The notes: a model not told the origin generated them from the letters alone. A stretch of 63,103 nt of DNA, filler included, from Candidatus Woesearchaeota archaeon (GCA_003695265.1; 6 parts of 6 records of this genome joined end to end with filler, not necessarily neighbours in it); one strand, 5' to 3'. Numbered from the whole stretch's first letter, positions 3,340 through 45,738 are shown. Translations and numbers: made by a program.

Positions 3340-3513
3340 GCACACTAGCTTAGATGGCAAATCTTTAAAAAAGATTTGATAGAAACTATTCAAGTGCAAT
3401 ATTCACAAAGTGAAATTGCACGGAACGCCCCAGTAGCTTAGGTGGCAAATTTTAAATAAAATTTGATAAAATTTATTCAAGTACCATATTCACTTCGCGA
3501 AATGGTACGAAAT
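3340..3513 (+). repeat. Two tandem 87-nt units, each a tRNA-Thr 5' fragment plus a two-hairpin element
   Basis: GCCCCAGTAGCTTAG at 3427 and 3514, degenerate copy at 3340; each unit continues TGG-CAAA..TTTGAT..CAAGT..ATTCAC..GYGAAAT..ACG. Confidence 0.85.
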
Positions 3514-3598
3514 GCCCCAGTAGCTTAGTGGCTAGAGCAGCCGCCTCGTATCATGCAAAGAAAGCGGCAGGTCGGGGGTTCAACTCCCCCCTGGGGCT
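3514..3598 (+). tRNA. tRNA-Thr(CGT) with 12-nt anticodon-loop intron (3551-3562)
   Basis: Acceptor GCCCCAG/CTGGGGC, anticodon stem GCCGC/GCGGC, loop CT-CGT-A|A, T-arm GGGGG-TTCAACT-CCCCC. Confidence 0.92.
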
Positions 3599-3616
3599 TA
3601 TTTTCTTTTTGCAAAT

Positions 3617-3713
3617 TTAAGTTAGTTTTGTTGAGCTGGAAAATTGTAAAAATTTTTAGTCCCACCCACACCACCCTAAAAATTAATGCTTGTCACAATT
3701 AAGCTGGCTTAAC
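3617..3713 (-). repeat. Dispersed intergenic repeat, copy 1
   Basis: Core TTAGTCCCACCCACACCACCC with conserved flanks. Confidence 0.85.
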
Positions 3714-3762
3714 AATTTTTACAAAGAAAATATTAAATATGAAAAATAACTGAAAGAGAATA

Positions 3763-4761
3763 ATGAGGATAATATTCTTGATAATGCTCAGTTTATTGCT
3801 TTTGTCCTGCTCTAAACATATTGAAATTGAAGCTCAAAAAACAGGAAACATTGAAGAGATAACAGGAAATGCAGTTGCAGTTCAGGATATGGCAGAAGGA
3901 AAAAATGTTTCTTTTGAGAATATTAGCATTAAGGAAGGTTGCGTCCTGACTGGGTTTTTAGTCAATGAGAAAGGAAGGAATTTCTCAAATATCACAATCC
4001 TGGCAAGGCACGCTGGCAGCGTTGACAAAACAGAAATTGATTTTGTTTATCCGGGAGAGACAAGCCCGTTCAGGATAAACATAACGACGAAGAAATGCCA
4101 TTACAGTTATAATTTAATTGCGGAATCAGAAGACGGCATGAACGTGTCGAGATTGGTTAGTTTTGAGCGCAACACTTGCGGCAATGGCATCTGCGAAGAA
4201 AATGAGAACGGCTGCAACTGCTCTGACTGCAAGCCCTGCTCCGGCTTTGCCGGGACGTGCATGATTTTCAGCTGTACAGAAGGGAACGAATGCAGGCCTA
4301 AAGTGATTGAGAATTGCGGCTCAATGATAAGAATAAATGACAAGTTCAGGGGTTTTGGAGAGAAGGTTCTCTGCCCTGTGAGGCTGAATTACAGCATTGA
4401 ATACCCAAAGCCCCTTGTCCTTAACAGGTCTGAGATAAGGCTTAGTTTTTACATGAAAAGAATCATTGATGACGAGTGCTCTGACTTCAAGGTAAGCAGG
4501 ATAATGATAAGGGACCAGGGCTCGGTTTTTTTTGACGAAGAAATTGATGAGGAATTGGATGAGGGTGATGCTTTGGTTTTAGACTTTGTTTTCAATGAGA
4601 CTTTTAGGGGTATGGAAAAGGATTCTGACCCTTCATTTTTTGTAGAGTTTAATGCATGGACTGTTGATGATGGGAAAAGCAGGTTTGTTGAGGACAGAAT
4701 AAAAGTGATTAATCCTGATAAAGACCTTGTTATGATTAATCCGGGATACGCGCAAAGTTAA
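3763..4761 (+). CDS. Putative lipoprotein with Cys-rich (CGNGICE) module
   Basis: Signal peptide ending LLSC; CGNGICEENEN...C..DC cluster. Confidence 0.7.
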   Translation: MRIIFLIMLSLLLLSCSKHIEIEAQKTGNIEEITGNAVAVQDMAEGKNVSFENISIKEGCVLTGFLVNEKGRNFSNITILARHAGSVDKTEIDFVYPGETSPFRINITTKKCHYSYNLIAESEDGMNVSRLVSFERNTCGNGICEENENGCNCSDCKPCSGFAGTCMIFSCTEGNECRPKVIENCGSMIRINDKFRGFGEKVLCPVRLNYSIEYPKPLVLNRSEIRLSFYMKRIIDDECSDFKVSRIMIRDQGSVFFDEEIDEELDEGDALVLDFVFNETFRGMEKDSDPSFFVEFNAWTVDDGKSRFVEDRIKVINPDKDLVMINPGYAQS

Positions 4762-6923
4762 TGCCTTGTTCTTGAAGCTTCTGAATATTCTATTAAAACA
4801 TTTGTTGCCGCGGACTGAAGTTGCGAGAAATGTGAGAAGTGATAAAAATTCACGTTCGGAAGTGTATCTGCGAACCTTTCAACGCGCTGAGCAAACATTC
4901 CCTTATGAAACATGGCAAAGTATAATATGCTCGTGTTTGGGTGTGCTGCCAATTTCTGTATTTCCTTCATATTTGCGTCATGATCATTATCAAGGTCGCC
5001 GTCCGCGACGAATATGTGCACCGTTTTTCCAGGAACGCATCTTGATTGCGCTAGTTGATAGGCTGGAATATCATAATAAGTTGAGCCGCCTTGAGGGTTA
5101 AGCATGATTTGCTTCGGATTGTTATTTGGGGTTTCATAAAAAGTCTCCAAGTCAATAGCATCACTTACGACAGTATGCCCCGCATTGCTGTAGTTAACCA
5201 CAACAACATTCGGGTTTTTATTCATTTCCCTTGCAGCATTAAGCAGCGTCTTAACAATGCCATAAGCCACATTGCATAAAGCATCAAACCTGCATCCTGA
5301 GCCATATATCATGCCAGGTTTCCCATTCCCATCTTGAAGCATGCTTCCTGAAGTGTCAAAATGAAACACAACATTATCCGGAAGCTCTAGTCCGGATTTC
5401 TCAAATTGGAAATCTTCTATTGGGATTTCTTCCCATTCATAAACATCATACCTGTACTGGTATGGTGTTAATCTTGTAACTTGAGATATTCCTGTTTGTG
5501 AAAAGAAATCATGAATTTTGTCCCAGGGAAGATTCATTAGTTCTGCATTTGTTAAGAAATGACTTTCTACTTTAACAGGCCTCCTGACTTTACCCAATTC
5601 AACAGACACTGCCTCAAGCCTTGGTGACTGTATTGGCAGGGGCCTTGCATTTCTTTTGTAATAAAGGTCTTTAGCAAGGTTTGAGAGCCTTTTGTTTCTA
5701 TCAGTCCTGGGATTATTATTATCATTGGCAATCCCCAGTAAGAAACTGCTAATTTCATCGCTGGCTTCATCGCCCATTTCATCAACGAGGTCCTGCAATG
5801 ATTCTTCTGCGCCGCCACCTGGCTGGTTTGGATCAGTTTGCGCATCACCGGTTTCGCTTCCGTCTCCTAATTGGGAGCCGTGCCTGTCCTCTTCTTTTGT
5901 GGTGGAAATAAATTTAGACAATGGAGCAATAAAGCCTTCAATAGACTTATACCTTGTGGTCTTGTCAAAAAACACTTTTGTAATTTTGTCAATGAGATAT
6001 GCATGCGCCTGATCACTTGTTTGTTTTGGATCATCGTACAACTCGTCAACATAATCCCTGAATCTTTTAGGATTAATCCTGTGCTTTCTTAAATCATCAA
6101 CGTCAAGATGTTTAATGATTCCGTTGAGGGATTCTTTAATCACTTGTTCAAGGGTTGCGTCGCTGATTCTTGCGCCCATTTTTTGCCTGAAATAATCAAA
6201 AAGGTTTGCTCTTAATTCACCACCTCTTGTAAAAAGAAGAGAATACATTGCTCTTGTAACAGGATAAAATAATGAGTTCGGCTCTTTGCCAGCTAATTCA
6301 ACAACATCCCATGTTCCAATAACCCCATCAGGGAGCTCTTTTATCTTATGTGCGCCTATTCCTTTGTTCCTTCTCTCAAATTCCATAGCTATTCTTCTTT
6401 CAAGTTTGTTATTGAAGTTAGACAAATAAAAAAATATGTCATCAATAAGAAAATCCCATACAGCGTTTCTTGCATTGCCTATTTTATTATTCACGTCCCT
6501 GTCAGAAAGATGCGGTTCTGCTTTTCGTATCCCTCTGTAAAGGGCAGCAGCAACCTTTTTTCTGTCATCTGCAGAATCTGGACAATAAAGGGGATGAAAC
6601 AATTCATGAAAAAAAAGATAAGTGAATGTGTCTTGTATTAGGTTTCTAACAAACCTAGCTTTGTCTTGGTCGTCAACCTGAAACCCATAGCTTTTCTGAT
6701 ATAAATCAGCAACAACTTCTTCAAAGGTTTTTTGAATGACATCAGGTTTGAAAACCAATGCCTTAATCTCATTGTTGTTTGTTGAGAAAGACCAAGGTCT
6801 TCGTGCGTTTGGGTCAGGATCAGCTCTTCTAACGGGCGTCCTGGAAAACATTGGCTCCTCAACAAGAACTATTTCCCTCCATATCCTCTCAGAGGTGATT
6901 AGGTCTTCTTGAACAGGATGCAT
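4758..6923 (-). CDS. HEXXH metallopeptidase-like plus C-terminal vWA domain protein
   Basis: FHELFH motif; acidic Gly-rich linker; MIDAS FDTSGSM, GGST, VADG. Confidence 0.8.
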   Translation of the reverse strand: MHPVQEDLITSERIWREIVLVEEPMFSRTPVRRADPDPNARRPWSFSTNNNEIKALVFKPDVIQKTFEEVVADLYQKSYGFQVDDQDKARFVRNLIQDTFTYLFFHELFHPLYCPDSADDRKKVAAALYRGIRKAEPHLSDRDVNNKIGNARNAVWDFLIDDIFFYLSNFNNKLERRIAMEFERRNKGIGAHKIKELPDGVIGTWDVVELAGKEPNSLFYPVTRAMYSLLFTRGGELRANLFDYFRQKMGARISDATLEQVIKESLNGIIKHLDVDDLRKHRINPKRFRDYVDELYDDPKQTSDQAHAYLIDKITKVFFDKTTRYKSIEGFIAPLSKFISTTKEEDRHGSQLGDGSETGDAQTDPNQPGGGAEESLQDLVDEMGDEASDEISSFLLGIANDNNNPRTDRNKRLSNLAKDLYYKRNARPLPIQSPRLEAVSVELGKVRRPVKVESHFLTNAELMNLPWDKIHDFFSQTGISQVTRLTPYQYRYDVYEWEEIPIEDFQFEKSGLELPDNVVFHFDTSGSMLQDGNGKPGMIYGSGCRFDALCNVAYGIVKTLLNAAREMNKNPNVVVVNYSNAGHTVVSDAIDLETFYETPNNNPKQIMLNPQGGSTYYDIPAYQLAQSRCVPGKTVHIFVADGDLDNDHDANMKEIQKLAAHPNTSILYFAMFHKGMFAQRVERFADTLPNVNFYHFSHFSQLQSAATNVLIEYSEASRTRH

Positions 6924-6926
6924 TAC

Positions 6927-8930
6927 TTACACCCCAAACATCCTTGATAATCTTTGATGATATATCTCTTCCGAAGTTGCGTCCTGCTTTTTCTCTTTTA
7001 ATAAGGCTTCAAGCTGCCCAAGTTGTAATAATGCTCTTTGCCCTTTATCCTTTTCTTTGAGAGTTTCTTTGAATCTTGCCTGAATATCCCCTTTGTATTC
7101 ATCAATAAATCCTGCGAATGTCGCGATGTCTGCAATAGCCCTTGCTATTAACAGTTTTTTAACGTCGCTTCCTTGATCAAGGGTTCTTAGCTTTCGGACT
7201 GCTGTCTCCAGCGCTTCTATCATCGGCTTTGCATATTCATCTGGGGTGTACTCTTGACCTGCTTTCATTCCTGAGATTGAACGAAGCGCAAAATGTATTG
7301 CATAATTCCTGATTGCACATGCATCATTATCAATTGAAAACCCTGGGCTTTTCATTTCAGCTGCGAAGTCATTGAACAGTCCAAGATAATCTGTAAGTAC
7401 TGTGTTTACTAATTCGATTGGGTCTCCGTCAGCGTTTGGCTGTTTTTTATCCGACAAAACGATTGAGTAAGCATCAGCCATGTCTTCTAAAGTGATGTAA
7501 GGTGATTGATCAAGCAATGCAGTCAACGGATCTGGATGCTTCAGTGCTTCTGTGAAATCCTTAATAGTTGCCAGCAAGTCAGCTATTTTTTTTGATTTTG
7601 CTGTGTCCCTTCTGATAAAGTCCTCTTCAAACTTAATTCCTGCAATCCTTTTCATCTTCTCAGACTCATCTTCAAAAGTTTGGTCGTATGTAAAATCAAC
7701 CCCATAAGCTGCAAGTCTCTCGGTCCAGTCTTTAGCATCTTCACACTCTATTTCAAATTCCCTTTTCAGGTTTCCGGAAGCAAGGTAAATAATGCAGTCT
7801 GAGAACTCCAAGGCAGATTTAATTATGCGTTTTTCAGTTTTCTTCGGATCTGTTGTGAATGCATAAAGTGAGAGCATGTTTAAGTTTGCAGCTTCCCTTT
7901 CTTCTCCATCTCCCAAACCACCGCCTGGCAGTAGAATTTTCTCTAATGATCTTGCAACAGCAGATTTAGGAGCAATGCCAAGTAATTCGCAGAGATAGCC
8001 TAAATAGCTCTTCCTAAACCTCAGATGCTGTTTGTTTTGTGATTGAGTAACATAAATTGAAGAGCCGTCACGTGAGGCTGCATTGGGAACATTTATTGTT
8101 AGGTCTCTGTTTGCGCTTGCCGCATCTGTCTTTACAGTTGCTGAATATTTTGCGTCATCAGCCCTTGCCGGGTTTTGAGCGCCCATCATAACTAATTTTC
8201 TCAGATAATCCTCAGAGAACACAATTTCATATTCGCCAGTAGCATTCCCTTTTTGGTCTTTTTTTTCGCGAATCAATGGGATAAAAGTCCCTAAATAGCC
8301 GCGTTCTCCTGTGCTTAACGCTATTTCAGAGTCCTGCATTTGTAGCACTTGGTTTGTGTCTCCCCTGTTTTTTTCATCAACGAACAAAAATACGACCTGC
8401 CTCATGGCATTACGGTTTAAGTGAAGGTATAAGACGCCGTCCCTAATCTCACCGTTGATGTATGGCTGTTGAACGTTAGACATTGCAAAGTTCAACCTTA
8501 ACACTTTTGAGAACTCTTCAGGTAACACAGTCTTCATGTATTTCTCAACTGAAAATGTCTTTCCTATTCCTGTGATGCCCTCAAAAAGAAGCGGAATTCT
8601 GTCCCTGTAATTTGCGCCTATGATCATATCCATAAGGGTTATGTCGCGGGAAAATTCTTTTGGCACTCTTGCCCTTCCTTCAAGCAGTTCAAAGTCCACA
8701 GTGTTATTATTAGGATTAAAGGTTAATCTGTAAAGGGGTGTTGGTGATATTTCAAGACTAATAGTATTATAGACTGCTCTAACCATTGCAAGTTCGCTTG
8801 CTGCCTGAATCCTCCTTGTGATCTCGTCCGCATCCTTAAATCCTTTCTTTGCAAGATGGGCTACTAAAAGATCTAACGCCTCAGCCCTTGGCTGAAATTC
8901 TTCTTGCTGTGCTGATTTTTCCTTCATCAT
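6927..8930 (-). CDS. Divergent MoxR-like AAA+ ATPase with long C-terminal extension
   Basis: Walker A EGITGIGKT, Walker B LFVDEKNR, sensor-1 GAQNP, DAASANR; adjacent to vWA gene. Confidence 0.75.
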   Translation of the reverse strand: MMKEKSAQQEEFQPRAEALDLLVAHLAKKGFKDADEITRRIQAASELAMVRAVYNTISLEISPTPLYRLTFNPNNNTVDFELLEGRARVPKEFSRDITLMDMIIGANYRDRIPLLFEGITGIGKTFSVEKYMKTVLPEEFSKVLRLNFAMSNVQQPYINGEIRDGVLYLHLNRNAMRQVVFLFVDEKNRGDTNQVLQMQDSEIALSTGERGYLGTFIPLIREKKDQKGNATGEYEIVFSEDYLRKLVMMGAQNPARADDAKYSATVKTDAASANRDLTINVPNAASRDGSSIYVTQSQNKQHLRFRKSYLGYLCELLGIAPKSAVARSLEKILLPGGGLGDGEEREAANLNMLSLYAFTTDPKKTEKRIIKSALEFSDCIIYLASGNLKREFEIECEDAKDWTERLAAYGVDFTYDQTFEDESEKMKRIAGIKFEEDFIRRDTAKSKKIADLLATIKDFTEALKHPDPLTALLDQSPYITLEDMADAYSIVLSDKKQPNADGDPIELVNTVLTDYLGLFNDFAAEMKSPGFSIDNDACAIRNYAIHFALRSISGMKAGQEYTPDEYAKPMIEALETAVRKLRTLDQGSDVKKLLIARAIADIATFAGFIDEYKGDIQARFKETLKEKDKGQRALLQLGQLEALLKEKKQDATSEEIYHQRLSRMFGV

Positions 8931-11607: not shown

Positions 11608-11674
11608 GTTTTTTGTATAAGAAACAAAAAAATTAGGGTTAAGTTAATTTTTAAGGATTGGGATAAAAAAATGG

Positions 11675-11775
11675 GTTAAGCAAATTTTGTTATGCTGAAA
11701 AAATTATGAAAGTGTTTAGTCCCGCCCACACCATCCAATTGCACGAAAGCTTTCTCACTTAAGTTGACAGCACCA
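11675..11775 (-). repeat. Dispersed intergenic repeat, copy 2
   Basis: TTAGTCCCGCCCACACCATCC...AAAGCTTTCTCACTTAAGTTGACAGCACC. Confidence 0.85.
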
Positions 11776-14675: not shown

Positions 14676-14937
14676 ACGAGAAATGTGCTTCGCACATTTC
14701 TGGGGTGCCAGAAATATACAATTTCTGAGCACCTTTGCCGAGCGTAACTAGCGAAAAAGTTTGTTTCGAACCCCGGATCCCAAGCTCTCTTCAACCAGAA
14801 TGGTTTAGGAGGCTTGTGCCTTATTTGCCCAAAGCTCTGGTCTTGCTCGTGGGGTTTCACGTTCAACTGTGAATGCCCCACTTGACCGCTTTGCATCAAA
14901 GCTTTACTAAAGCTTTGCCAGACTAGGCTACAGGTCC
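14676..14937 (-). tRNA. tRNA-Arg(CCT) with three introns: D-loop 14825-14917, anticodon 14787-14805, T-loop from 14764 into the gap (3' end missing)
   Basis: GGACCTG TA GCCT AGTCTGG|ATA AGGC A CAAGC CT CCT A|A GCTTG GGATC CGGGG TTCGAA|. Confidence 0.85.
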
Positions 14938-15014: not shown

Positions 15015-15968
15015 ATGATAATCAAGCAGAAGCCTTCTGATTTCATTGTAAGAGAAGTTATAAAGCTCAAAAAAGAAAACAGGGGGAAATATTGCTATGT
15101 GAAACTGACAAAAGAAAACATGAATACAGAGGATGCTGTGGCAAAAATAGCAAGAATTCTTGGGCTGAGAAGAAAAGATATAGGGTATGCTGGCTCAAAG
15201 GATAAGCATGCTGTCACAGAGCAGGCTATATCAATAAAAGGCGTTTCAAGGGAGAGGGTTGAGAGATTAAGAATAAATAATATTAAAATTGAATTCCTTG
15301 GCTTTGGCAATGAAAGAATAAGCCTCGGAAGCCATGAGGGCAACGAGTTTGAGATTATTGTGAGAGATGCCGAGCCGCGTTTAAAAAGCGTGAAAGAAAT
15401 ACCGAATTATTTTGACGAGCAGAGATTCAGCAGGAATAATGTTGAGATAGGAAGGTTGATAATAAAAAGGAATTTCAAAGAAGCAGCTTTTATGTTAATG
15501 AATGAATATAAAGAAGTAAAAGAGCATCTTTCCGAGCAGAAAAATGATTTTGTTGGAGCTCTGAGAAAACTGCCGGAAAAAATATTAAAGCTTTACATTC
15601 ATTCCTACCAGTCGTGGCTTTTTAACATAATGCTTTCTGATTACATAAGAAAGAATTCACAAAAAACGCGAATCGTTCCTTACAGCTTGGGCGATTTTGT
15701 TTTTCCTGAGATTAGAATAAAGAATAAGAAGCTGCCTTTAATAGGGTTTCAAACTGAAACAAATGAGGTAATGAAAAAGGAGGGGATCACAAACAGAGAT
15801 TTTATAATAAGGGAAATACCTAACATCAGCGCTGAAGGCTCTGAAAGGTGTGCTTTTGCAGAAGTAAAAGATTTTTCTATTGAAAAAGTGAAAGAAGGCT
15901 ACCTGTTAAAATTTTATCTGCCCAAAGGGAGCTATGCAACGATTGTTGCTAAAATGGTATTTTACTGA
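15015..15968 (+). CDS. truD: tRNA pseudouridine(13) synthase
   Basis: DFIVRE, YAGSKDKHAVTEQ, GNEFEI, NYFDEQRF, QSWLFN, LPKGSYAT. Confidence 0.95.
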   Translation: MIIKQKPSDFIVREVIKLKKENRGKYCYVKLTKENMNTEDAVAKIARILGLRRKDIGYAGSKDKHAVTEQAISIKGVSRERVERLRINNIKIEFLGFGNERISLGSHEGNEFEIIVRDAEPRLKSVKEIPNYFDEQRFSRNNVEIGRLIIKRNFKEAAFMLMNEYKEVKEHLSEQKNDFVGALRKLPEKILKLYIHSYQSWLFNIMLSDYIRKNSQKTRIVPYSLGDFVFPEIRIKNKKLPLIGFQTETNEVMKKEGITNRDFIIREIPNISAEGSERCAFAEVKDFSIEKVKEGYLLKFYLPKGSYATIVAKMVFY

Positions 15969-19868: not shown

Positions 19869-20759
19869 ATGTTATGGTTAATACCTCTTTGTATTGGTCT
19901 TTTCATTTGGTCATTGGCGTCTCTGGTTGACAGGTATGCATTAATTTTTCATGTGAAAAGCAAGAAGTTGTATGTTTTGTACCCTGCTCTTACACACTTG
20001 GTTGTGACTTTTGTTATAATCCAATTTTTTCCAATAGAAAAACTTTCTTTTGATGTTCTTGGTTGGGCAATTCTTGGCGGGTTGCTTGAAGTATGGACGC
20101 TTTATTACCTTTTCACTGCAATAAGTCTGGAACAAATAACAAAAGTATTCCCTTTAAGCAGTTTAACCTCTTTTTTAGTGCTTTTCTTGAGCTGGTTATT
20201 GCTCAACGACCCGCTTTCGGGAAGCAGCTTATATGCATTTTTTCTATTTGTTGCTGGAGGAACAATTCTTGGAGTTTCACATGATAAAAAAAAGATCAAC
20301 CTAAGTAAGGCGTTGAAGCCCTTACTCATAACTGGTTTTGTAGGAAGCTTTCAAATAATAGTGATGAAGCACGTTTTTAACTTGACCAGATTCTGGACAG
20401 GATTCTTTTACTCAAGAATTGGGTTATTTATTGGGGGGCTGATAATCTTCCTTGCTTGGCAAAAGAAAATAATTAAAGAATGGAAAAAAGTCAAACCAAA
20501 AACACATTCCCTTTTATTCGGCAATCAGATAATAGCTGTTTTTGGCCATGTTTTTGTGTATTTTGCATTGTCTTTGGCAAATTCTGCTTTGGTAAGCTCA
20601 GCATACGGAATACAGCACATAATGATATTCTTAATGGCAACTTTCATCAGCATTTGGAAACCGGAAATACTAAAAGAGGAACTAACAAAAAAAGAAATAT
20701 TGAAGAAAGCCATTGGAACTTTGTTAGTAATTGCTGCAATTTACTTTTTGAATGTGTAA
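19869..20759 (+). CDS. EamA/DMT family transporter
   Basis: ~10 TM helices in two repeats. Confidence 0.8.
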   Translation: MLWLIPLCIGLFIWSLASLVDRYALIFHVKSKKLYVLYPALTHLVVTFVIIQFFPIEKLSFDVLGWAILGGLLEVWTLYYLFTAISLEQITKVFPLSSLTSFLVLFLSWLLLNDPLSGSSLYAFFLFVAGGTILGVSHDKKKINLSKALKPLLITGFVGSFQIIVMKHVFNLTRFWTGFFYSRIGLFIGGLIIFLAWQKKIIKEWKKVKPKTHSLLFGNQIIAVFGHVFVYFALSLANSALVSSAYGIQHIMIFLMATFISIWKPEILKEELTKKEILKKAIGTLLVIAAIYFLNV

Positions 20760-20920
20760 GCCCCGGGAGGGACTTTCACAAACTTTTGCCGTTTTTCGTG
20801 GGATTTCACTCAGTGAACATCCCACATGATCGCTTTTGATCAAATTTTGGCAAAAATTTGGTTTGAACCCTCGACCTGCGGATTACAAGTCCGCCGCAAT
20901 AGCCACTATGCTACCGGAGC
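20759..20920 (-). tRNA. tRNA-Thr(TGT) with 89-nt T-loop intron (59/60; 20773-20861)
   Basis: Acceptor GCTCCGG/CCGGGGC, anticodon GCGGA-CT TGT AA-TCCGC, T-stem GAGGG/CCCTC; bulge-helix-bulge (BHB) from TTCA/TGAA helix with closing helix CAAATTTTTGCC/GGCAAAAGTTTG. Confidence 0.92.
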
Positions 20921-20967
20921 AATAGACTCTGGTTTTAATTCCTAATTTATAAATTTTATTGAAAAAT

Positions 20968-21056
20968 GGTTAAGTCAACTTAAGTGAGATAGGTTTTGGT
21001 GGTGTTGGTGGGACTAAAAACTTTGTAATGCCCTAACTCAAAAAAATTGACTTTAT
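20968..21056 (+). repeat. Dispersed intergenic repeat, copy 3
   Basis: GGTTAAGTCAACTTAAGTGAGA...GGTGGTGTTGGTGGGACTAAAAA...AAATTGACTTTA. Confidence 0.85.
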
Positions 21057-21101
21057 CTTGAAAAAGTGTTTTATTCGTAAATTATTGTCTTAAAAAAAGA
21101 A

Positions 21102-29329: not shown

Positions 29330-29441
29330 AAAGCAAAGTTGATTATGGCAAGATGTGACATATAAGGGTGGTTTGGGTGGGACTAAAAATTTTTGTGATT
29401 TTTAAGGCAACAAATTTTCAACACAAAAAAACGGACTTAAG
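29330..29441 (+). repeat. Dispersed intergenic repeat, copy 4
   Basis: GGGTGGTTTGGGTGGGACTAAAAATTTTTGTGAT...CAACAAA...GACTTAA. Confidence 0.8.
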
Positions 29442-29489
29442 CTATTTCTCAAAACCTTTAAATATTATCATTTGATTCTCTGCTTTACT

Positions 29490-37862: not shown

Positions 37863-40433
37863 ATGAAGAAGAACCAAAATAATTTTTTGAAAAATTTGTT
37901 TAGTTTTATTGTTTTAGGAATTTTGGCTTTTAGCATTTTACCATTAGAATCTCTTGCAGAAAATAGAACGGCCGACGTCACGATTTTGCCGGCCAACTCA
38001 AGATACTGTGATATAAGAGACACAATAAGCGAGGGCGAGCAAAGGACGTACAGTTTTGAGTTTGCAGAAGATTATGATATACAACTTGTACTAGCAACAA
38101 ATGAGCGTGCAAGGTTCAAGATTAACGGAGAAATAACAGAAGAATTAGGAATAGGTGAGAGTGATGAGCTAATGAATGGAGCTTTCATAAGTGTGTTGAA
38201 TATTTATTCATCAAAAATAAAAGGATTATTTAATAGTGCTGAGTCTGTTGTTAAAAACGTTGAGTTTTGCTTGTTGGCAGAACCTTTCCATCCTGGATTG
38301 GAAGAGCACTTTGATTCAACAAAAGTGAAACATCTTGATATGTACATTTATTCTAAGCCGCACTGGCTTGGAAGAAACATCCATTGGGATAATGAGCAAA
38401 GATCTCATTTGACTGAAATCGATGATGAGACTGTTGAACTGAACTTTGAGGACTGGTCAGACTTTGATTTCGACGACGCTGTTTTTAGAGTCGAAAATGT
38501 TGGAAGTAATGAAATAAAGGTGACTCTTACAAATATGAGTACTGCTGCGCCTAATCCAACACATATAGTCTTAGATTTTGAAGGCAAGCAAAAAAAGGTT
38601 TATGATCCGAATGGAAGAGTAATGACTGGTGACCATTTTGATATTCTTCTTTGGGATGATTTAAGAGATGTTCCTATAGGCAGTTCAAAAACAATAATGT
38701 TTAATGATTTACCTGAAGGACAACCCGACTTGGTGGTAGAAGATATTTCATTTGAGCCCAACAGCCCAGATGAGGATGATAATGTTAGAATTGGTGTCAC
38801 TGTTAGGAATGTTGGCAGTGGAGTTGCTGAGAATTTTGCTGTTGGCTTGTTCAAGTTTGTAGGATTTAAGCCTGCACAGACTGTTTTAGATATTGATGAA
38901 GATGTTTACACAGCAGAAAAGGCAACTAACACCTACCAAAAGAAGTTGTTTTCCCTTGGTGCAGGAGAGTCAGAAACCCTATACTTCGGGCCTTACAAGT
39001 TTGACTCTGGTCACCACTTGTTTATGGCTGAAGCTGACATTTTTAACACTGTTGAAGAATTAAATGAGACGAACAACAAGATGTTCAGGGGCCTTTACGT
39101 TAGAGAAGGAGATAATAATCAGGTAATCTACGTTGAACTCGGAGAAAAGTTTGGTTTAATCCCAGAGCAAAGCGCAATAGTGACAAATTATAATAACATG
39201 AGAATACAGCTCAACAGCATTCAATCTTTTGTATGCGCCGCTGTTGTAGGTTCTAAATGTTACCCGTACATAGCAAACTTTGATGCTAGCATTAGTTATG
39301 ACAATAATGCTGGTCTGGGTGTGAACTTTGATTTGAAAGAAGGTGAGAGCAAGGAATTATTTGGTGCTGTCATAACCTTACTAGATTTGAGCAGTGATAA
39401 GGCAACCTTGATTATTGAGAAAGAAAATGATTCCCATACTGATTTGGTTGAAGTTAGCATAGAGCCAAAAAAGCAGACAGTAAAAGCAGGAGAAACTGCA
39501 AGTTATAAAGTCACAATAAAGGACAAGCATCATCAAATTGAATGCTTTAAGGCACCTTGCCTTCAGCCAGAGTACAAATATGAATTGTCTGTTGGCAACA
39601 TGCCTTTACAAGTTGATATTTGGAAGTACATTTATCTGACTGCCGGACAAAAAAAAACACTTGATCTGGAGATCGACACAGGATGGCTTGAAGACAGTTT
39701 CCCGAAACCTCCAAAGATTAGTGAGGAAAATCTTGAGGATGATAAGGAAGGAATCAATTCTGAAAAGGCCGTCACAAACGTGAAGCCTTTGTACATAGGC
39801 CATGATGAAAAAACTTACAGGTTCTTTGTAAGTGCAAAGCTTGTCGGAGATGAGAACGTAAAGCATAAGGGCTGGGCAAGTTTAAAAGTGATATCATGGC
39901 ATAAGCCAAAACCAGGCTCTACTGTTTCAATTAGTTTAAATAAAGGCTGGAACCTTGTCAGCATTCCTGGAAAGCTGAAAAAATTCATGTCGAACCAGTG
40001 CACGGATGAGAAAAAGCTGATAGCTTATGTTTGGATTGACGGCAAGTATGTTACTTTGCAGGAGGCAAGGGAAATCCTTGGTCACGAGTTTGCAGAATTC
40101 ATAGGCAAGAACGCTTTTTGGGTTTATTCTCATAACTCATGTGACTTAAAAGTAAGAATTGGTGATACGACCAGAGCAAGCGAGATTGATTTGAGTCCCG
40201 GATGGAACTTCTTGCCTGTGACTTATGATATGATCAGCAGGAAAGCAGAAGAAATCAGTAAGGGATGCAGCATAAACTCAATTTACAGCTGGGACGCAAA
40301 CCACCAAGAATGGGATTATGTTTCACTTGCGCATATTGTAAGTAACAAGGATATTGGCAAAGGTTACATTGCAAGAAGCTCTAATTACTGCTGGCTAAGC
40401 GGAGGTTTAACACCACCCCCTTTGCCCGAATAA
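37863..40433 (+). CDS. Secreted surface protein with CARDB domain and C-terminal GWNL repeat domain
   Basis: GGAGGT SD; signal peptide; PDLVVEDI..V.NVG..ELNETNN; LNKGWNLVS, LSPGWNFLP; ends TPPPLPE. Confidence 0.8.
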   Translation: MKKNQNNFLKNLFSFIVLGILAFSILPLESLAENRTADVTILPANSRYCDIRDTISEGEQRTYSFEFAEDYDIQLVLATNERARFKINGEITEELGIGESDELMNGAFISVLNIYSSKIKGLFNSAESVVKNVEFCLLAEPFHPGLEEHFDSTKVKHLDMYIYSKPHWLGRNIHWDNEQRSHLTEIDDETVELNFEDWSDFDFDDAVFRVENVGSNEIKVTLTNMSTAAPNPTHIVLDFEGKQKKVYDPNGRVMTGDHFDILLWDDLRDVPIGSSKTIMFNDLPEGQPDLVVEDISFEPNSPDEDDNVRIGVTVRNVGSGVAENFAVGLFKFVGFKPAQTVLDIDEDVYTAEKATNTYQKKLFSLGAGESETLYFGPYKFDSGHHLFMAEADIFNTVEELNETNNKMFRGLYVREGDNNQVIYVELGEKFGLIPEQSAIVTNYNNMRIQLNSIQSFVCAAVVGSKCYPYIANFDASISYDNNAGLGVNFDLKEGESKELFGAVITLLDLSSDKATLIIEKENDSHTDLVEVSIEPKKQTVKAGETASYKVTIKDKHHQIECFKAPCLQPEYKYELSVGNMPLQVDIWKYIYLTAGQKKTLDLEIDTGWLEDSFPKPPKISEENLEDDKEGINSEKAVTNVKPLYIGHDEKTYRFFVSAKLVGDENVKHKGWASLKVISWHKPKPGSTVSISLNKGWNLVSIPGKLKKFMSNQCTDEKKLIAYVWIDGKYVTLQEAREILGHEFAEFIGKNAFWVYSHNSCDLKVRIGDTTRASEIDLSPGWNFLPVTYDMISRKAEEISKGCSINSIYSWDANHQEWDYVSLAHIVSNKDIGKGYIARSSNYCWLSGGLTPPPLPE

Positions 40434-40442
40434 ATCATCTTT

Positions 40443-40497
40443 TGTGAGGAAGATTTAATCACGGATCATCCCCTTTAGTCTTCCTCACATTTTTTAT
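40443..40497 (+). terminator. Stem-loop with T-tract between the two surface-protein paralogs
   Basis: TGTGAGGAAGA...TCTTCCTCACA 11-bp stem followed by TTTTTT. Confidence 0.5.
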
Positions 40498-40566
40498 TTA
40501 TCATTAAACCATTGAAAAAAAGGTTTAAATAAGAAATAAGACATAAATAAAACAAAGGTGATATTA

Positions 40567-43377
40567 ATGAAGAAATATGCTATTCTTGGGATTATGATCT
40601 TTTTGATGTTAAATGTTGTTCTAGCTGATTCGGAATGCATTGTTAAAGATGTGGTTAAAGAAGGCGAAACAAAAACATACTCGGTAAATGATATTGATTA
40701 TGAGACAAGCGTTCTTGAAATATTTAAAGACACAGCAAAGTTCAGAGTGAATAGTGAAGTAACTGACTTTATTGGAGAAGAAGAGCGTGCTGCCTTATCT
40801 GATGGTATTGTAATCCAAGTTAATGAGATTAACGATGATGAGAATAATTCAGTCGAGTTATGCTTCAGGCAGGATAAAAAGCTTTGTGTTACTAGCACTG
40901 ATGAGAAAGGAACATATTATTGTGAGGATGACCAGGGAATTCATTATCCTTATTGTGATGGCAACACGCAAAAAACTTTCTTTTGTAACTTAAAAAATGA
41001 GTGCGAATTGGAGAAGGTTCCATGCCCAGATAACAAAGAATGTGTTGTTCGTGGATGGGGCACTGACTGTGTGGAGCATACCACAACAATATGCAAGGAC
41101 TCTGATGGTGGTAGGGATTATTACAAGAAAGGAAGCATTACAGACAATAATGGAAGAACAGAAACTGATTATTGTGCTGATGATAACCAGTTAGTAGAAT
41201 GGTACTGTACTGAAAGCTATGGGGTTGGAACAAATTATGAATACAAGGCTTGTTCTGATCTGGGAAAATATTATTGTGATGACGGCGCATGCGTTAAAAG
41301 AGAAGTTGAAATTAAAACAGGCCCTTGCGGAAGAGAAACTGCCTACGACGGTGAAATAAATTCAATAAATTTTGGCACAATTCACACTTGGTGGAGTAAG
41401 AGCTCAGATGGAAGAGGATGGCTGTATTACAGTACTTATGAGCCGGATTATTCAGGACCAAAATTATATATGGGAATTGCGGATGAGAAAAACATAAAGG
41501 AGGTGGATTGCAGTAAAGTCAAAATGGATTATGAAGGCCAAAACGGAGAAACAGCACTTCTTGTTTCAAATAATCAAATTGTTTGCATGAAACAAGACGG
41601 AAAATATGGCGCTCTAGTTCCAAAAGTCCAAACAAACAAGCATGATTACATTACAGACAAGCAGAAAGATTACATAAAGTATGATTGGTACTTCAACAGG
41701 AATGGCGGCGGAACTTTTGAGAGGTGCGGATGGGAAGACGAGAACAAATGCGGAGACGGCGTTTGTGACACAAACACAGAAAATAATTATAACTGTCCGC
41801 AGGACTGCGGCGGTATAAATGAAGGTCCAAGTGTTGATGTTAATGTTGAGCCTTACAGCCAAACAGTTGAAGGAGGAGATATTGCTTCTTACAAAATAAT
41901 AATAACTGACAAGAGGCCTTTAGTTAAGTGTCATGATAAAGAGAACTGCGCTCAGGTAAAGGTTGATTATTACATTGACGTTTCCGGCCTGCCTTTCGAG
42001 GCAGAGTATGATAAAACAGCAACATTAGGCCCTAGTGAGTCTACAGCGATTGGGCTTGACATTTACACAAAAAGAAGGAGTATTACACCAAAGCCATTAA
42101 AACTAAAGCCGATAAGAACCCAAACAAGACAGGTCGTTGACAAGACTGAAGAAGGGTCAGCTAATGAGTATAATTCTTTTATAAAATGCAAAGACACTGA
42201 CAACAGCCCAAACTATATGAAAGTCAGGCCGAAATACCCCTTGAGTCCTGAAACTAATCCTGACTTTTTTGTAAAGGGCCTGGCTGTTGGGAAATACGTT
42301 GGGTTATCTTCAGGCAATAGAGTTTACACAGATGCTGGCGTTTCAAAAGCAACAAGTGATCCTTACAGCACGTATTATGACCATTGCCAAAATAAGGATC
42401 AATTGAACGAGGCTTACTGCGTTGGAGACGGAAAGTTTGCCTCATTAGGGATTAGTTGCCCAAACGGATGTAAGGACGGAGCTTGTGTCAAACCAGGAGT
42501 TCCAAACAATACAGGAAGCGCAAGCCCTGTTGTAATGAAAACAGGAACAAACGTTGCTGCTTCAAGCCCTTCATTAATGAAATTAATGCTGTTTGAGAAC
42601 ACAGAATCAGAACCTGGAGTGTTGGCTAATGTTAAACAGGCTGTTGAGACAAAAATAAGGTTGGCTTCAGCACAAACAATTAACAAAAACAAAGTTGAAG
42701 GTTATTATAATTTTAAGGTTGGTGTGAAAGGCAGTGATGGAAGCTATGACAGTGTTAACGCCATCTTAATCGTTAAAGGAGTTGAAGTAGAATATCCTGA
42801 TGAGCCAGACATTCTCCCGCCGCCTCTGCCAGAAGAAGAGTTCAAAGTAAAATTGGAGAGAGGATGGAATCTTGTTGGGATTCCAGGAACATTACAAAGG
42901 TTTATGACAAGTGAATGCACGAAAGACAAGAAACTAATTGCGTTTGTTTACTTAAAGGAAGAGGGAAAATATGTCACATTACAAGAAGCAAAAAGGTTTT
43001 ATGGCACAGAACTTGGCGAGTTCCTGGCAAAGAATGCCATATGGATTTACGCGTACGAATCATGTAACTTAGAGGCTGTTCTTAAGGAAAGAACAATATT
43101 AAATAATATTTACTTAACGCCCGGCTGGAATATGATCCCAATAACTCATGAAATGATAGGCAAAAGCTTTGACGAGTTGTTTGGAGAATGCAGTTTGGAA
43201 AGAGTTTACTCATGGGACAAACATAACCAGGAGTGGCATAACCTTGAAACAAGCGGAAAATTATTGCATGAGAATATGATAAATCAAGGTATAATTGTGA
43301 AAGTTGGTGATTATTGCAGGCTTGGCTCATATGGTATTCTAACACCACCATCACTTCCAGAAGAGGAGGTGGTTTAA
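40567..43377 (+). CDS. Secreted Cys-rich surface protein, paralog of 37863-40433
   Basis: AGGTGA SD; two CxD[ST]D..KG..D.C..QL.E.YC..C.DGACV modules; CGDGVC; shared GWNL domain; ends TPPSLPE. Confidence 0.8.
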   Translation: MKKYAILGIMIFLMLNVVLADSECIVKDVVKEGETKTYSVNDIDYETSVLEIFKDTAKFRVNSEVTDFIGEEERAALSDGIVIQVNEINDDENNSVELCFRQDKKLCVTSTDEKGTYYCEDDQGIHYPYCDGNTQKTFFCNLKNECELEKVPCPDNKECVVRGWGTDCVEHTTTICKDSDGGRDYYKKGSITDNNGRTETDYCADDNQLVEWYCTESYGVGTNYEYKACSDLGKYYCDDGACVKREVEIKTGPCGRETAYDGEINSINFGTIHTWWSKSSDGRGWLYYSTYEPDYSGPKLYMGIADEKNIKEVDCSKVKMDYEGQNGETALLVSNNQIVCMKQDGKYGALVPKVQTNKHDYITDKQKDYIKYDWYFNRNGGGTFERCGWEDENKCGDGVCDTNTENNYNCPQDCGGINEGPSVDVNVEPYSQTVEGGDIASYKIIITDKRPLVKCHDKENCAQVKVDYYIDVSGLPFEAEYDKTATLGPSESTAIGLDIYTKRRSITPKPLKLKPIRTQTRQVVDKTEEGSANEYNSFIKCKDTDNSPNYMKVRPKYPLSPETNPDFFVKGLAVGKYVGLSSGNRVYTDAGVSKATSDPYSTYYDHCQNKDQLNEAYCVGDGKFASLGISCPNGCKDGACVKPGVPNNTGSASPVVMKTGTNVAASSPSLMKLMLFENTESEPGVLANVKQAVETKIRLASAQTINKNKVEGYYNFKVGVKGSDGSYDSVNAILIVKGVEVEYPDEPDILPPPLPEEEFKVKLERGWNLVGIPGTLQRFMTSECTKDKKLIAFVYLKEEGKYVTLQEAKRFYGTELGEFLAKNAIWIYAYESCNLEAVLKERTILNNIYLTPGWNMIPITHEMIGKSFDELFGECSLERVYSWDKHNQEWHNLETSGKLLHENMINQGIIVKVGDYCRLGSYGILTPPSLPEEEVV

Positions 43378-43668
43378 GTGCTGAAACATGTTTTTCCTAT
43401 TTTTTTTGTTTTATTAATTATTTTATTGGTTAGCTGCACAACAAGCACTTCATGTGATTCTGGAATGTACACTGGGGACGGCAAATGCTGCAATTATGTT
43501 TGTGATATTGATTGCGAGCACGGCTACAAGGAAGGAAGCTGCAACTGTGAATGCTTAAGTATAAACAGCAATGGGCAAAATGATTCTGGCCAAGACCAGG
43601 ATTTAGGCATTGATGACGTTTTTGGCAATAACACTAATATTCAGCCACCACCTATAATCCCACAATAG
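43378..43668 (+). CDS. Small Cys-rich lipoprotein
   Basis: GGAGGTG SD, GTG start, LVSC lipobox, ends QPPPIIPQ. Confidence 0.65.
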   Translation: MLKHVFPIFFVLLIILLVSCTTSTSCDSGMYTGDGKCCNYVCDIDCEHGYKEGSCNCECLSINSNGQNDSGQDQDLGIDDVFGNNTNIQPPPIIPQ

Positions 43669-44356
43669 TCTTTTTTATATTTTCTTCATCTACCTTCAAA
43701 CCGTGTTTCCTGAAGAACCTGCAAATGTTTCTTACGTCTCTGTCAAGGTATTCTCGAGAATTAGGATCCTCTAAAGGAGTTAAAGTTGACACGTCAATAA
43801 ACACCGGCTTTTCTTCATGGTTGAGAATGTTAAATTCTGAAAGGTCACCATGGACAAACCCAGACTCATAAATTTTCTTCATGCCATAAATTATATCATT
43901 AAAGAATCTCTTTAAATCTCTTGGAACAGCATCTTTCAGTTTCGGGCTTACATACTCATTCCCAATGCATTCAATTACAAGGATGTTGTCCTTGAATGCA
44001 AAAGGTTGTGGCACGCGAACAATCTTTTCTAAAATCAGAAGGTTCCTATACTCTCTTTTGCACCATGCAAATATCACTTTTCTTTTCTGCTTTTTAAGCC
44101 CTTGAAAGCGTGGGTCGCTCTTAATGTAATTGTACATCCTGTTAAAATCAGCTGTTTCTAAGCGGTAAATTTTTAATATTACGCGTGATTTGTCCTTTCT
44201 CAAAGCAGTAAATATATTCGCTTCCTTTCCAATGCTTACTGGGCTTTCAAGATCATAAAATATTCCTTTTGACTGCAAGATAAACAGGTTTCTAAGCGTG
44301 AACTCATCAAAAACGTTCTTGTAAGTCTTGAATTTCTCTCTTGTTATTTTTGGCAT
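43652..44356 (-). CDS. rio1: RIO1 family kinase
   Basis: SIGKEANIF, LKIYR, WCKREYRNL, VHGDLSEFNIL, IDV. Confidence 0.95.
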   Translation of the reverse strand: MPKITREKFKTYKNVFDEFTLRNLFILQSKGIFYDLESPVSIGKEANIFTALRKDKSRVILKIYRLETADFNRMYNYIKSDPRFQGLKKQKRKVIFAWCKREYRNLLILEKIVRVPQPFAFKDNILVIECIGNEYVSPKLKDAVPRDLKRFFNDIIYGMKKIYESGFVHGDLSEFNILNHEEKPVFIDVSTLTPLEDPNSREYLDRDVRNICRFFRKHGLKVDEENIKKTIVGL

Positions 44357-44512
44357 TGGAATTATTATAAATTAGCTTTTATTTTTAAATTGTTTGAAAA
44401 TGCTTAGCAAAATAGAAGAATCACTTATAACAATCAAGATATATCAAAAGATTTAAATGCTTGGCAGGATTACCAACACTTTCAGGGTGATAAACTTTTT
44501 TGAGGTGATAAA

Positions 44513-45442
44513 ATGAAGCATTTGTTGGCCCTGAAAGACCTGACTTCTAATGAAATCCTGTTTTTGATTGACAAGGCAATTGAAATCAAGAAAAACCCAG
44601 AAAAATACTCAACAGCAATGAAAGACAAAACACTCCTAATGATCTTTGAAAAGCCCTCTTTAAGAACAAGGCTAAGCTTTGAAACAGGCATGACGCAGAT
44701 GGGCGGCCACGCCATATTCTACAGCATAAAAGATTCTCCTCTCGGAAAAAAAGAAAGCATTCACGACACTGCAAAAACAGCCTCTAGATACGTTGACATA
44801 ATAATGGCAAGGCTTAACAAGTTCACAGACTTAAAGGAGCTTGCAGACAACTCATCCGTGCCAGTAATAGACGCTCTTTCAGATATGAACCACCCCTGCC
44901 AGATAATCTGCGACCTTCAAACAATTAAAGAAAAAAAAGGAAAGCTAAAAGGCTTGACATTAACATACATGGGCGATTCCGAAAACAACGTAACCTACTC
45001 CTTAATGCACGGCTGCGCATTAGTCGGTATGAACATAAAAATAGGATGCCCAAATGACAAAAGGTTTATGCCTAAGGAATCAGTTATCCAAGAAGCAGAA
45101 GAAATAGCAAAGAAAACAGGTTCAACAGTTAAGATAATACACGACCCGATCGAAGCTGTTAAAAATGCTGATATAGTTTACACAGACTCATGGATGTCAT
45201 ACCACATTCCTGAATCAGAGCAGGAAGAGCGCATTAAGGTTTTAAAGCCGTTCCAAGTTAATTCTGAGCTTATGAAACACGCAAAAAAAGACGCTTTGTT
45301 TATGAACTGTCTTCCAGCGATGAGGGGCTTCGAGCAGACAGCCGACGTTATTGACGGTCCGCAAAGCATTGTGTTTGACCAGGCAGAAAACAGGCTTCAC
45401 GCGCAAAAAGCAATAATCTTGTGGCTTTTAGGCAAGATTTAG
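44513..45442 (+). CDS. argF: Ornithine carbamoyltransferase
   Basis: FEKPSLRTRLSF, HPCQ, YTDSWMS, NCLPA, QAENRLH. Confidence 0.93.
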   Translation: MKHLLALKDLTSNEILFLIDKAIEIKKNPEKYSTAMKDKTLLMIFEKPSLRTRLSFETGMTQMGGHAIFYSIKDSPLGKKESIHDTAKTASRYVDIIMARLNKFTDLKELADNSSVPVIDALSDMNHPCQIICDLQTIKEKKGKLKGLTLTYMGDSENNVTYSLMHGCALVGMNIKIGCPNDKRFMPKESVIQEAEEIAKKTGSTVKIIHDPIEAVKNADIVYTDSWMSYHIPESEQEERIKVLKPFQVNSELMKHAKKDALFMNCLPAMRGFEQTADVIDGPQSIVFDQAENRLHAQKAIILWLLGKI

Positions 45443-45484
45443 CAAAAAACTTTAAATACAGCAGTTTAATCTCTCTATGTTTAC

Positions 45485-45738
45485 GGACCTGTAGCCTAGT
45501 CTGGCAAACCTTATCAGGTTTGATCGAGCTGTGTGGCGTGCGCTCACTCTGTTCGCTTAGCCACACGAGAATCTGCTTGATAAGAATTGGGCAAATAAGG
45601 CGACGGCCTTCTACGCTTCGCGCGGAAAGCCGTAGATCGGGGGTTCGAAACAAACTTTTTCGCTAGTTACGCTCGGCAAAGGTGCTCAGAAATTGTATAT
45701 TTCTGGCACCCCAGAAATGTGCGAAGCACATTTCTCGT
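45485..45738 (+). tRNA. tRNA-Arg(TCT) with three introns: D-loop 45505-45594, anticodon 45614-45627, T-loop from 45650 into the gap (3' end missing)
   Basis: GGACCTG TA GCCT AGTCTGG|ATA AGGC G ACGGC CT TCT A|A GCCGT AGATC GGGGG TTCGAA|. Confidence 0.85.

What the first reader, a model, noticed from the sequence alone, without database searches (positions are those of the whole stretch)
3358..45594. Structured element family with covarying stems living in tRNA introns at different positions: candidate mobile tRNA-intron system
Seen: five copies of the pattern CAAA-stem-TTTG-AT-(~10 nt)-CAN-GT-stem-TTCAC-loop-GYGAA-stem-ACG. They sit at 3358 and 3446 (before tRNA-Thr(CGT)), in the D-loop intron of tRNA-Arg(CCT) (14825-14917, minus), in the T-loop intron of tRNA-Thr(TGT) (20773-20861, minus) and, more diverged, in the D-loop intron of tRNA-Arg(TCT) (45505-45594). 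Stem 1 covaries: CAAATCTTT/AAAGATTTG, CAAATTTT/AAAATTTG, CAAAGCTTT/AAAGCTTTG, CAAACCT/AGGTTTG. Stem 2 covaries: GTGCAAT/ATTGCAC, GTACCAT/ATGGTAC, GTGGGAT/ATCCCAC, GTGGGG/CCCCAC, GTGTGGC/GCCACAC. Established: archaeal tRNA splicing needs only a bulge-helix-bulge (BHB), so internal conservation is not required for splicing. Inference: this is either a non-autonomous element that targets tRNA genes and is tolerated because it is spliced out, or a functional ncRNA released as a circular intron.
Basis: partly seen in the sequence, partly recalled or inferred. Interest (0 to 1): 0.88.

Follow-up and report, generated by a model that had tools for sequence, protein, structure and literature searches.

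The report
DNA-folding mini-element that seeds tRNA introns
The five repeats belong to an apparently undescribed family of 55-90-base mobile elements in tiny archaea that seem to fold as single-stranded DNA and survive in essential genes either as removable tRNA introns or beside a duplicated gene end, offering a traceable route by which archaeal introns arise.

Summary
The genome holds 18 distinct scored copies (about 25 with diverged ones), all in tRNA introns, tRNA leaders or RNase P RNA; 5 of the 18 are inverted. Models find the family in 36 of 150 same-order genomes (probably Woesearchaeales), with no Rfam match. There, at least 108 of 197 copies touch tRNAs, in both orientations (66:42). 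66 of 200 lie between 13-70-bp direct repeats of a gene end, including ends of protein genes. Covariation shows more than two stems: the linker mirrors stem 1 position by position (a triple helix) and loop 1 pairs downstream (a pseudoknot); both hold in held-out copies. Best reading: a non-coding ssDNA-folding insertion module with one precise end, tolerated when BHB splicing or a gene-end duplication rescues the host gene. No RT, Y1, Y2 or Cas1 partner tracks it, so the catalyst is unknown; host end-joining is my lead guess.

The parts
3340..3357 (+). Decayed copy of the tRNA-Thr(CGT) 5' end (to the D-loop GG): first direct-repeat stub
   Evidence: Sequence; compare 3514-3531
3358..3426 (+). 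Module copy 1 (stem 1, mirror linker, bulged stem 2)
   Evidence: E 2.7e-10
3427..3445 (+). Near-perfect copy of the tRNA-Thr(CGT) 5' end: second direct-repeat stub
   Evidence: row L038:1589
3446..3512 (+). Module copy 2, ending 1 nt before the intact tRNA
3514..3598 (+). Intact tRNA-Thr(CGT) with a short 37/38 intron (3551-3562) unrelated to the module
   Evidence: RF00005, 58.5 bits; anticodon and intron read
14676..14764 (-). 5' part of the T-loop (59/60) intron of tRNA-Arg(CCT): long family member with an expanded loop 1, cut by the contig end and continuing at the start of C72
14676..14937 (-). tRNA-Arg(CCT) gene, 5' part, with three introns (19/20, 37/38, 59/60)
   Evidence: Sequence
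14825..14917 (-). D-loop (19/20) BHB intron; module at 14845-14917
   Evidence: (E 1.4e-7)
20759..20920 (-). tRNA-Thr(TGT) gene
20773..20861 (-). T-loop (59/60) canonical BHB intron; module at 20794-20860, whose stem-1 5' arm doubles as the BHB outer helix
45485..45738 (+). tRNA-Arg(TCT) gene, 5' part, with three introns
   Evidence: Sequence
45505..45594 (+). D-loop (19/20) intron; diverged module at 45505-45570
   Evidence: E 0.002
45650..45738 (+). 5' part of the T-loop intron of tRNA-Arg(TCT): long family member, continuing at the start of C91

Best explanation
A non-coding, non-autonomous insertion module that works as folded single-stranded DNA. SHOWN: stem covariation, mirror and pseudoknot covariation, strand asymmetry, both orientations, one precise end and one variable end, direct repeats. 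INFERRED: the protected 3' end is joined precisely to a target strand, often at the foot of a hairpin (the tRNA G1:C72 pair); the other end is resolved imprecisely or by homology with a carried or copied gene end, which leaves 13-70-bp direct repeats, sometimes of a foreign allele. Only insertions that leave the host gene working persist: BHB-spliceable introns, copies abutting gene ends, copies rescued by duplication, and tolerant loops (RNase P P3). Once an intron, it spreads between tRNA paralogues at the same position. Catalyst, my odds within this explanation: host single-strand annealing or end-joining (primase PriSL, flap nuclease and ligase) about 45%, a trans-acting HUH nuclease not identified here about 40%, other about 15%.
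For: Mirror covariation: mutual information between stem-1 position k and linker position k-2 is 0.66, 0.80, 0.58, 0.35 and 0.39 bits (each permutation p<0.001; 67 distinct types; some neighbouring cells near the T/A tracts are also significant). Weak/strong-base agreement is 233 of 268 against 167+-7 permuted; in held-out new types 120 of 148 against 91+-5, maximum 110 of 5000 permutations. Pseudoknot: mean longest loop-linker pairing 2.2 against 1.85+-0.07 (0 of 5000 reach it); held-out 1.91 against 1.62 (3 of 5000). GCGNAGC hairpins are far more stable as DNA than as RNA (PMC13037366, passages). Orientation: 5 of 18 own copies are inverted; 66 sense and 42 antisense to tRNAs elsewhere. Direct repeats: 66 of 200 against 21 of 2935 mismatched pairs, ending 0-7 nt before the element start. 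Junctions: the module's terminal base is tRNA G1 in 9 of 13 5'-abutting copies, and C72 in 6 of the 10 rows listed, two of which are T-loop introns. Allelic repeats: five correctly framed protein-gene pairs have 36 identical, 30 synonymous and 15 non-synonymous codons (7 further rows not counted, most of them auto-framed wrongly); other pairs are near-perfect (L265, L271, L293).
Against: No partner enzyme was found. Y1_Tnp is in 18 of 36 element-positive against 38 of 114 other genomes (p=0.08), RT in 10 of 36 against 23 of 114 (p=0.36). The module is absent from 42 RT and Y1 loci (best E 0.08). Y1 and RT are absent from the own assembly; Cas1 from 5 element-rich genomes. Strand-locking to base skew is only partial: 11 against 1 on own contigs with clear skew, same sign within G121, G148, G039 and G150 but mixed in G245, G054, G060 and G198, and no common sign overall (24 of 54). 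Kin are not independent in the covariation tests. The triple helix is inferred from covariation only.
Confidence: 0.62

Rival explanations
1. SINE-like retroposition: an RNA copy (excised circular intron, or RNase P-released leader) is reverse transcribed by a trans-acting RT (for example a DGR RT) and inserted by target priming or template jumping; the folded strand is the cDNA or an antisense RNA.
For: One sharp and one variable end, variable-length direct repeats, and mismatches clustered at the junction. Junctions coincide with RNA processing sites (tRNA +1, 72/73, intron positions). RT genes occur in 33 of 151 genomes of the order.
Against: RT is not associated with the element (10/36 against 23/114) and is missing from the own assembly. 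I saw no added CCA in the duplicated tRNA ends read by eye. Protein-gene duplicates that differ mostly at synonymous sites need DNA from another lineage. Both strands of tRNA genes are used.
Confidence: 0.18
2. RNA-level intron transposition as proposed for Thermoproteales: introns hop between tRNAs by reverse splicing or gene conversion, and the inner structure only helps form the BHB.
For: Near-identical introns at 59/60 in five own tRNAs (C84/C65, C26/C75, C44, C85, C30). Such copying is described for Thermoproteales (PMC4033280, passages). EndA is present.
Against: It cannot explain inverted copies, duplication-flanked copies at protein genes, or the RNase P insertion, where I see no BHB. 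The conserved stem 1 competes with the BHB helix. It probably explains only the last step of spread within a genome.
Confidence: 0.08
3. A functional structured RNA (circular intron RNA, leader or processing signal, or ribozyme) kept for the cell's benefit.
For: Deep covariation and a triple-helix pseudoknot are typical of functional RNAs. In some copies the folded strand directly precedes tRNA +1 or a start codon (5 of 196 within 1 nt of an ATG that opens a long ORF, including rpL2 twice and EF-2-like once).
Against: Orientation is mixed; presence is patchy across many different loci; loops are DNA-type; no Rfam family matches. tRNA-Arg(TCT) has the D-loop element in G060 but no D-loop intron at locus L124.
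Confidence: 0.08
4. Scar or att-like site of larger integrative elements that carry a replacement gene end, as proposed for tRNA-Thr in Caldiarchaeum.
For: Allelic gene-end duplicates. In G198 a 1.7-kb low-GC3 cargo is bounded by a repeat that includes the stub and the module's first bases. Precedent: PMC3293823 (abstract).
Against: Dozens of unrelated targets on both strands; in most duplicated loci nothing but the module lies between the repeats; no recombinase beside any copy whose neighbours I listed (tyrosine recombinases were not searched as a family).
Confidence: 0.04

Closest known systems
REP / REPIN / BIME repeats and their RAYT (TnpA-REP) HUH enzymes
   Same: Short non-coding hairpin modules, some with a hairpin-bulge-hairpin shape, occurring singly, as inverted doublets and inside larger palindromes; ssDNA logic (PMC6006769, passages).
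   Different: No GTAG/GTGG tag seen at the hairpin foot; no flanked HUH gene; adds a covarying triple helix and pseudoknot; targets stable-RNA genes and gene ends with 13-70-bp duplications. PMC6006769 saw only the IS200-type subclass in Archaea.
Thermoproteales tRNA intron transposition (Fujishima et al. 2010, seen as cited in PMC4033280)
   Same: Similar BHB introns in many tRNA isotypes of one genome, at non-canonical positions.
   Different: Here the shared sequence is a structured module that also exists outside introns, in both orientations and between direct repeats.
MITEs (non-autonomous DDE derivatives; definition recalled)
   Same: Small, non-coding, multi-copy, flanked by direct repeats.
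   Different: No terminal inverted repeats in the duplication-flanked copies; repeat length varies from 13 to 70 bp and the repeats can be different alleles.
tRNA fragments left by integrative elements (Caldiarchaeum tRNA-Thr; PMC3293823, abstract)
   Same: A tRNA 5' fragment upstream of an intact tRNA, linked to intron gain.
   Different: There a 1.8-kb recombinase-coding element lies between; here a 55-90-nt module with no gene.
Triple-helix pseudoknots of telomerase RNA, SAM-II and MALAT1 3' ends (recalled, no call)
   Same: On the folded strand a pyrimidine-rich loop lies along an 8-9-bp stem at a 3' terminus.
   Different: Those are RNAs in one fixed orientation; here the loop and mismatch signatures and the mixed orientation suggest DNA.

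Membership tests
Archaeal BHB intron | 4-bp central helix flanked by two 3-nt bulges at the exon-intron junctions | tested here: met
   Read from the sequence for the 59/60 intron of tRNA-Thr(TGT) (canonical) and, in relaxed form, for the 19/20 Arg introns
Archaeal BHB intron | Splicing endonuclease EndA encoded | tested here: met
   PF01974 hit at E 2.8e-29, 190-aa ORF
Archaeal BHB intron | Spliced tRNA and circular intron observed in RNA | not testable with these tools
   Could not be examined here (see Tried and rejected)
REP/REPIN-RAYT | GTAG/GTGG tetranucleotide at the 5' foot of the hairpin | tested here: not met
   Not seen at a stem foot on either strand in the 119 distinct copies printed (by eye; no scripted count)
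REP/REPIN-RAYT | HUH (Y1) gene flanked by the repeats | tested here: not met
   32 Y1 and 10 RT loci searched with R3: one hit at E 0.08; none in the own assembly
REP/REPIN-RAYT | Singlets and inverted doublets, extragenic | tested here: met
   Doublets in L116, L161, L182, L136, L168
IS200/IS605-type ssDNA elements | Two precise ends, no target duplication | tested here: not met
   One precise end; direct repeats in 66 of 200
IS200/IS605-type ssDNA elements | Orientation tied to the lagging-strand template | tested here: inconclusive
   Biased in the own genome and four others, mixed in four
MITE (DDE-derived) | Terminal inverted repeats with a fixed-length target duplication | tested here: not met
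   Repeat length 13-70 bp, 3' end variable by 0-101 nt
SINE-like retroposon | Partner reverse transcriptase | tested here: inconclusive
   RT in 10 of 36 positive against 23 of 114 other genomes; draft genomes can miss it
SINE-like retroposon | Variable target duplication with one defined end | tested here: met
   some repeats are divergent alleles rather than fresh copies
Casposon-derived element | Cas1-family casposase present | tested here: not met
   PF01867: 0 of 5 element-rich genomes; control rang in 7 of 14
IS91/ISCR rolling-circle element | Y2 transposase present | tested here: inconclusive
   0 of 5 genomes, but no control genome rang either
Known Rfam RNA family (C/D guide, ribozyme, riboswitch) | Match to a curated model | tested here: not met
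   Window at gathering threshold: tRNA only; 15 own loci at E<=1: tRNA and RNase P only

The most novel reading that the evidence does not exclude
A transposase-free selfish DNA. A 55-90-nt single strand folds its 3' end into a nuclease-resistant triple-helix pseudoknot, so host end-joining enzymes splice it, together with whatever gene end lies behind it, onto the foot of a hairpin or into an orthologous gene of another lineage. It would be both a source of new BHB introns in tRNA and rRNA and a marker, perhaps a driver, of allele replacement between divergent DPANN lineages, and a natural DNA triple helix supported by evolutionary covariation.
Probability: 0.3. Interest if true: 0.93.

Novelty: new variant of a known kind. 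Interest (0 to 1): 0.8.

Why it matters
How archaeal BHB introns arrive is open: a 2026 preprint on Asgard tRNA introns found no general route (10.64898/2026.10.13.758758; abstract and section 2.5 read). Here one recognisable sequence family is caught in three states (between duplicated gene ends, abutting a gene, and as a spliceable intron at four tRNA positions and in 16S rRNA), so a route becomes directly testable. The position-by-position mirror covariation is unusual evidence for a conserved triple helix, probably in DNA, and needs only synthetic oligonucleotides to test. In practice these inserts hide tRNAs from annotation and break assemblies at tRNA loci in these archaea.

Tried and rejected
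Expression: no RNA holder listed; this says nothing about expression. DNA contigs of run X1 cover both minus-strand introns without change, but X1 may be the source sample, and the 14779-14910 joint is best explained by the paralogous Arg(TCT) locus, not an intron-less allele. Viral contigs: four patterns gave 1 hit without stem 2, then 0, 0 and 0. Phage and plasmid collections: no match at E<=0.01. Two IS200 TnpA loci in element-rich genomes are not flanked by the module. A universal strand lock to GC or TA skew was rejected. Energy-based strand choice was uninformative. ARAGORN with long introns gave mostly spurious calls. L084 first looked like an allele replacement, but may be an older tandem pair with a 10-bp repeat, so it was not counted. 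A DGR-type (one-sided adenine) pattern was not seen in the one pair checked by eye. A C/D-box or K-turn reading did not fit the alignment. An RT stop at m1A58 as the cause of junction errors was dropped, because similar errors occur at D-loop and protein-gene junctions. Literature: nine answered searches plus one search found no description of this family; the library lacks most subscription papers, and bioRxiv supplements were closed and could bear on novelty. The cargo proteins of G198 were not annotated.
Full report
OBSERVATION. The window is six contigs of a 1.06-Mb, 103-contig assembly (94.6% complete). The copies at 3358 and 3446 each follow a copy of the first 18-19 bases of tRNA-Thr(CGT), so the locus reads stub-module-stub-module-intact tRNA. 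Both Arg tRNAs carry a further, longer member in a T-loop intron that breaks the assembly. Rfam has no family for the element.

OWN GENOME. An iterated nhmmer search gave 20 hits at E<0.01. Two pairs are the same locus split between contigs (C84/C65 and C75/C26, judged by acceptor-stem pairing), leaving 18: ten T-loop (59/60) introns, two D-loop (19/20) introns, five copies 5' of tRNAs, and one inside RNase P RNA (RF00373). Five of the 18 are inverted relative to the host RNA. Two weaker hits (the Arg T-loop introns), one at E 0.5 and four seen by eye bring the total to about 25, none in an ordinary intergenic region or protein gene. Of 36 distinct tRNA T-arms found (40 rows, less 2 false positives and 2 split loci), 26 carry an intron, 12 of them with the module; 10 have none. 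EndA is present.

DISTRIBUTION. Model R1 hit 6 of 40 relatives, R2 36 of 150 same-order genomes, and R3 38 of 150 in a phylum sample, where all listed positives are same-order. A class sample gave three same-order genomes and one weak hit outside the order (E 0.0017). Only 32-34 candidates per genome were scored in the large searches, so these are lower bounds. An exact pattern over species genomes gave 100 stretches, 80 listed: 43 titled Woesearchaeota, Nanoarchaeota or Nanoarchaeia, 30 with other archaeal labels (25 'Methanosarcinales', the depositors' labels, not checked), and 7 bacterial, six of which R2 does not hit and one (L181) lacks stem 2. I infer that the order is Woesearchaeales; no tool named it.

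CONTEXTS. At least 108 of 197 distinct non-own copies lie within about 200 nt of a tRNA fragment, against 40 of 1500 random positions; 66 are sense and 42 antisense to the tRNA (the remaining list holds more tRNA cases by eye). They occur as introns in the D, anticodon, variable and T loops, in 16S rRNA, again inverted in RNase P RNA (L088), at protein gene starts (rpL37e, rpL2, enolase, ABCE1-like; names from the translations, recalled) and ends (SRP54, SecY, YjbQ), in tandem arrays, and as inverted doublets within 200-250-bp intergenic palindromes. In 66 of 200 copies (own copies included) the flanks are direct repeats of 13-70 bp (null 21 of 2935). The left repeat ends 0-7 nt before the element's CA; the right starts 0-101 nt after its core. 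Some repeats are perfect, as for fresh insertions (L254, L265, L271). In five correctly framed protein-gene pairs, 30 codons differ synonymously, 15 non-synonymously and 36 are identical; in L295 the counts are 12, 3 and 2. A decaying dead copy would not look like this, so at these sites the two ends are alleles from different lineages. Where the module abuts a tRNA, its terminal base is G1 (9 of 13 rows) or C72 (6 of 10 rows, two of which are T-loop introns): on either strand the folded strand's last G is the first base of the acceptor helix.

STRUCTURE. Stem 1 (8-9 bp) and stem 2 (7 bp, one purine bulge, about 5 bp) covary. The linker tracks stem 1 in register: A in the 5' arm goes with T, T with A, and G/C with G/C (mutual information 0.35-0.80 bits along the diagonal; 233 of 268 against 167+-7 permuted). 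This held in 37 types not seen in training (120 of 148 against 91+-5). A mirror repeat that covaries implies a third strand (inference). Loop 1 also pairs with the bases after the A-tract, making an H-type pseudoknot. GCGNAGC-type hairpins are much more stable as DNA than as RNA and resist 3'-5' exonucleases (PMC13037366, passages). In the predicted pre-tRNAs of Thr(TGT) and Arg(CCT) the 5' arm of stem 1 is used by the intron-closing helix, so the conserved fold and the splice-competent fold exclude each other; in Arg(TCT) stem 1 is kept.

PARTNERS. None found. Y1 HUH genes: 56 of 151 genomes, 18 of 36 positives (p=0.08); RT: 33 of 151, 10 of 36 (p=0.36). The module does not flank 42 such loci. 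Cas1 is missing from five element-rich genomes; the Y2 test had no working control. No copy was found in viral contigs, phages or plasmids.

MECHANISM. Shown: a multi-copy, orientation-free module with a precise end, gene-end duplications and a conserved tertiary fold best read on one DNA strand. Inferred: the folded strand's 3' end is joined to a target strand, often at a hairpin foot, and the other end is resolved by homology or microhomology, duplicating the gene end. Selection keeps only insertions that spare the host gene, and those whose tail pairs back with the junction become BHB introns that then spread among tRNA paralogues. For the catalyst I lean to host enzymes: archaeal primase anneals strands, extends across discontinuous templates and mediates microhomology end joining in Sulfolobales (PMC3333859 and PMC12019639, abstracts only); an unidentified HUH nuclease is nearly as likely. 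Retroposition is the main rival (0.18), because the junctions coincide with RNA processing sites.

COMPARISON. It works like a REP/REPIN-type ssDNA module and, once inside tRNAs, like the Thermoproteales transposed introns, but it fails defining tests for REP, MITE, IS200/605 and casposon families. The intron copies do meet the BHB definition. Passages of a recent complete-genome survey of the phylum note missing tRNAs but no such element (10.64898/2026.05.13.725050, passages). Several unchecked notes of this scan describe what may be the same family in other genomes; a search of those notes for the triple helix or pseudoknot found none.

VERDICT. Real, apparently undescribed in the searched literature, and broader than a tRNA-intron system. 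New variant of a known kind (non-autonomous structured repeat), with a 0.3 chance of being a transposase-free class of its own. Interest 0.8.

Noticed in passing
window 3617-3713, 11673-11774, 20942-21073, 29366-29454, 54066-54165, 55891-55986, 62891-62996: A second, separate ~100-nt intergenic repeat family with inverted ends and a C-rich core; 59 nhmmer hits in the genome. No mobilising enzyme was looked for specifically.
   Followed up: partly
own genome, T-loop introns on C22, C27, C52, C85, C86, C89, C90: Other T-loop intron families at 59/60 share short repeated hairpin motifs; 26 of 36 tRNA T-arms are interrupted, and Rfam finds only 8 tRNAs over its cut-off.
   Followed up: partly
L366:1404-3941 (G198): Layered allele stubs of the RFC and YjbQ genes bound a 1.7-kb low-GC3 cargo of two genes (one looks like a TrmB-type regulator by eye); one boundary includes the module's first bases.
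   Followed up: partly
L377, L387, L399, L253: Module inside an insertion in 16S rRNA just after the conserved GGATTAGAT motif (about position 788; position recalled), likely an rRNA intron.
   Followed up: no
L374:2600-2860 (G221), L257, L160: Tandem arrays of 2-4 modules directly 3' of tRNA genes or with one repeat per unit, suggesting slippage or rolling-circle amplification.
   Followed up: no
L064, L086, L273: The folded strand ends exactly at the start codon of rpL2 (two genomes) and an EF-2-like gene; possible effect on translation initiation.
   Followed up: no
window 15015-15968: A TruD-like pseudouridine synthase gene lies head-to-head with the triply interrupted tRNA-Arg(CCT).
   Followed up: no
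L003 (C26), downstream of tRNA-Gly: A small HNH-like ORF converges on the module-bearing tRNA-Gly (motif read by eye, not searched).
   Followed up: no
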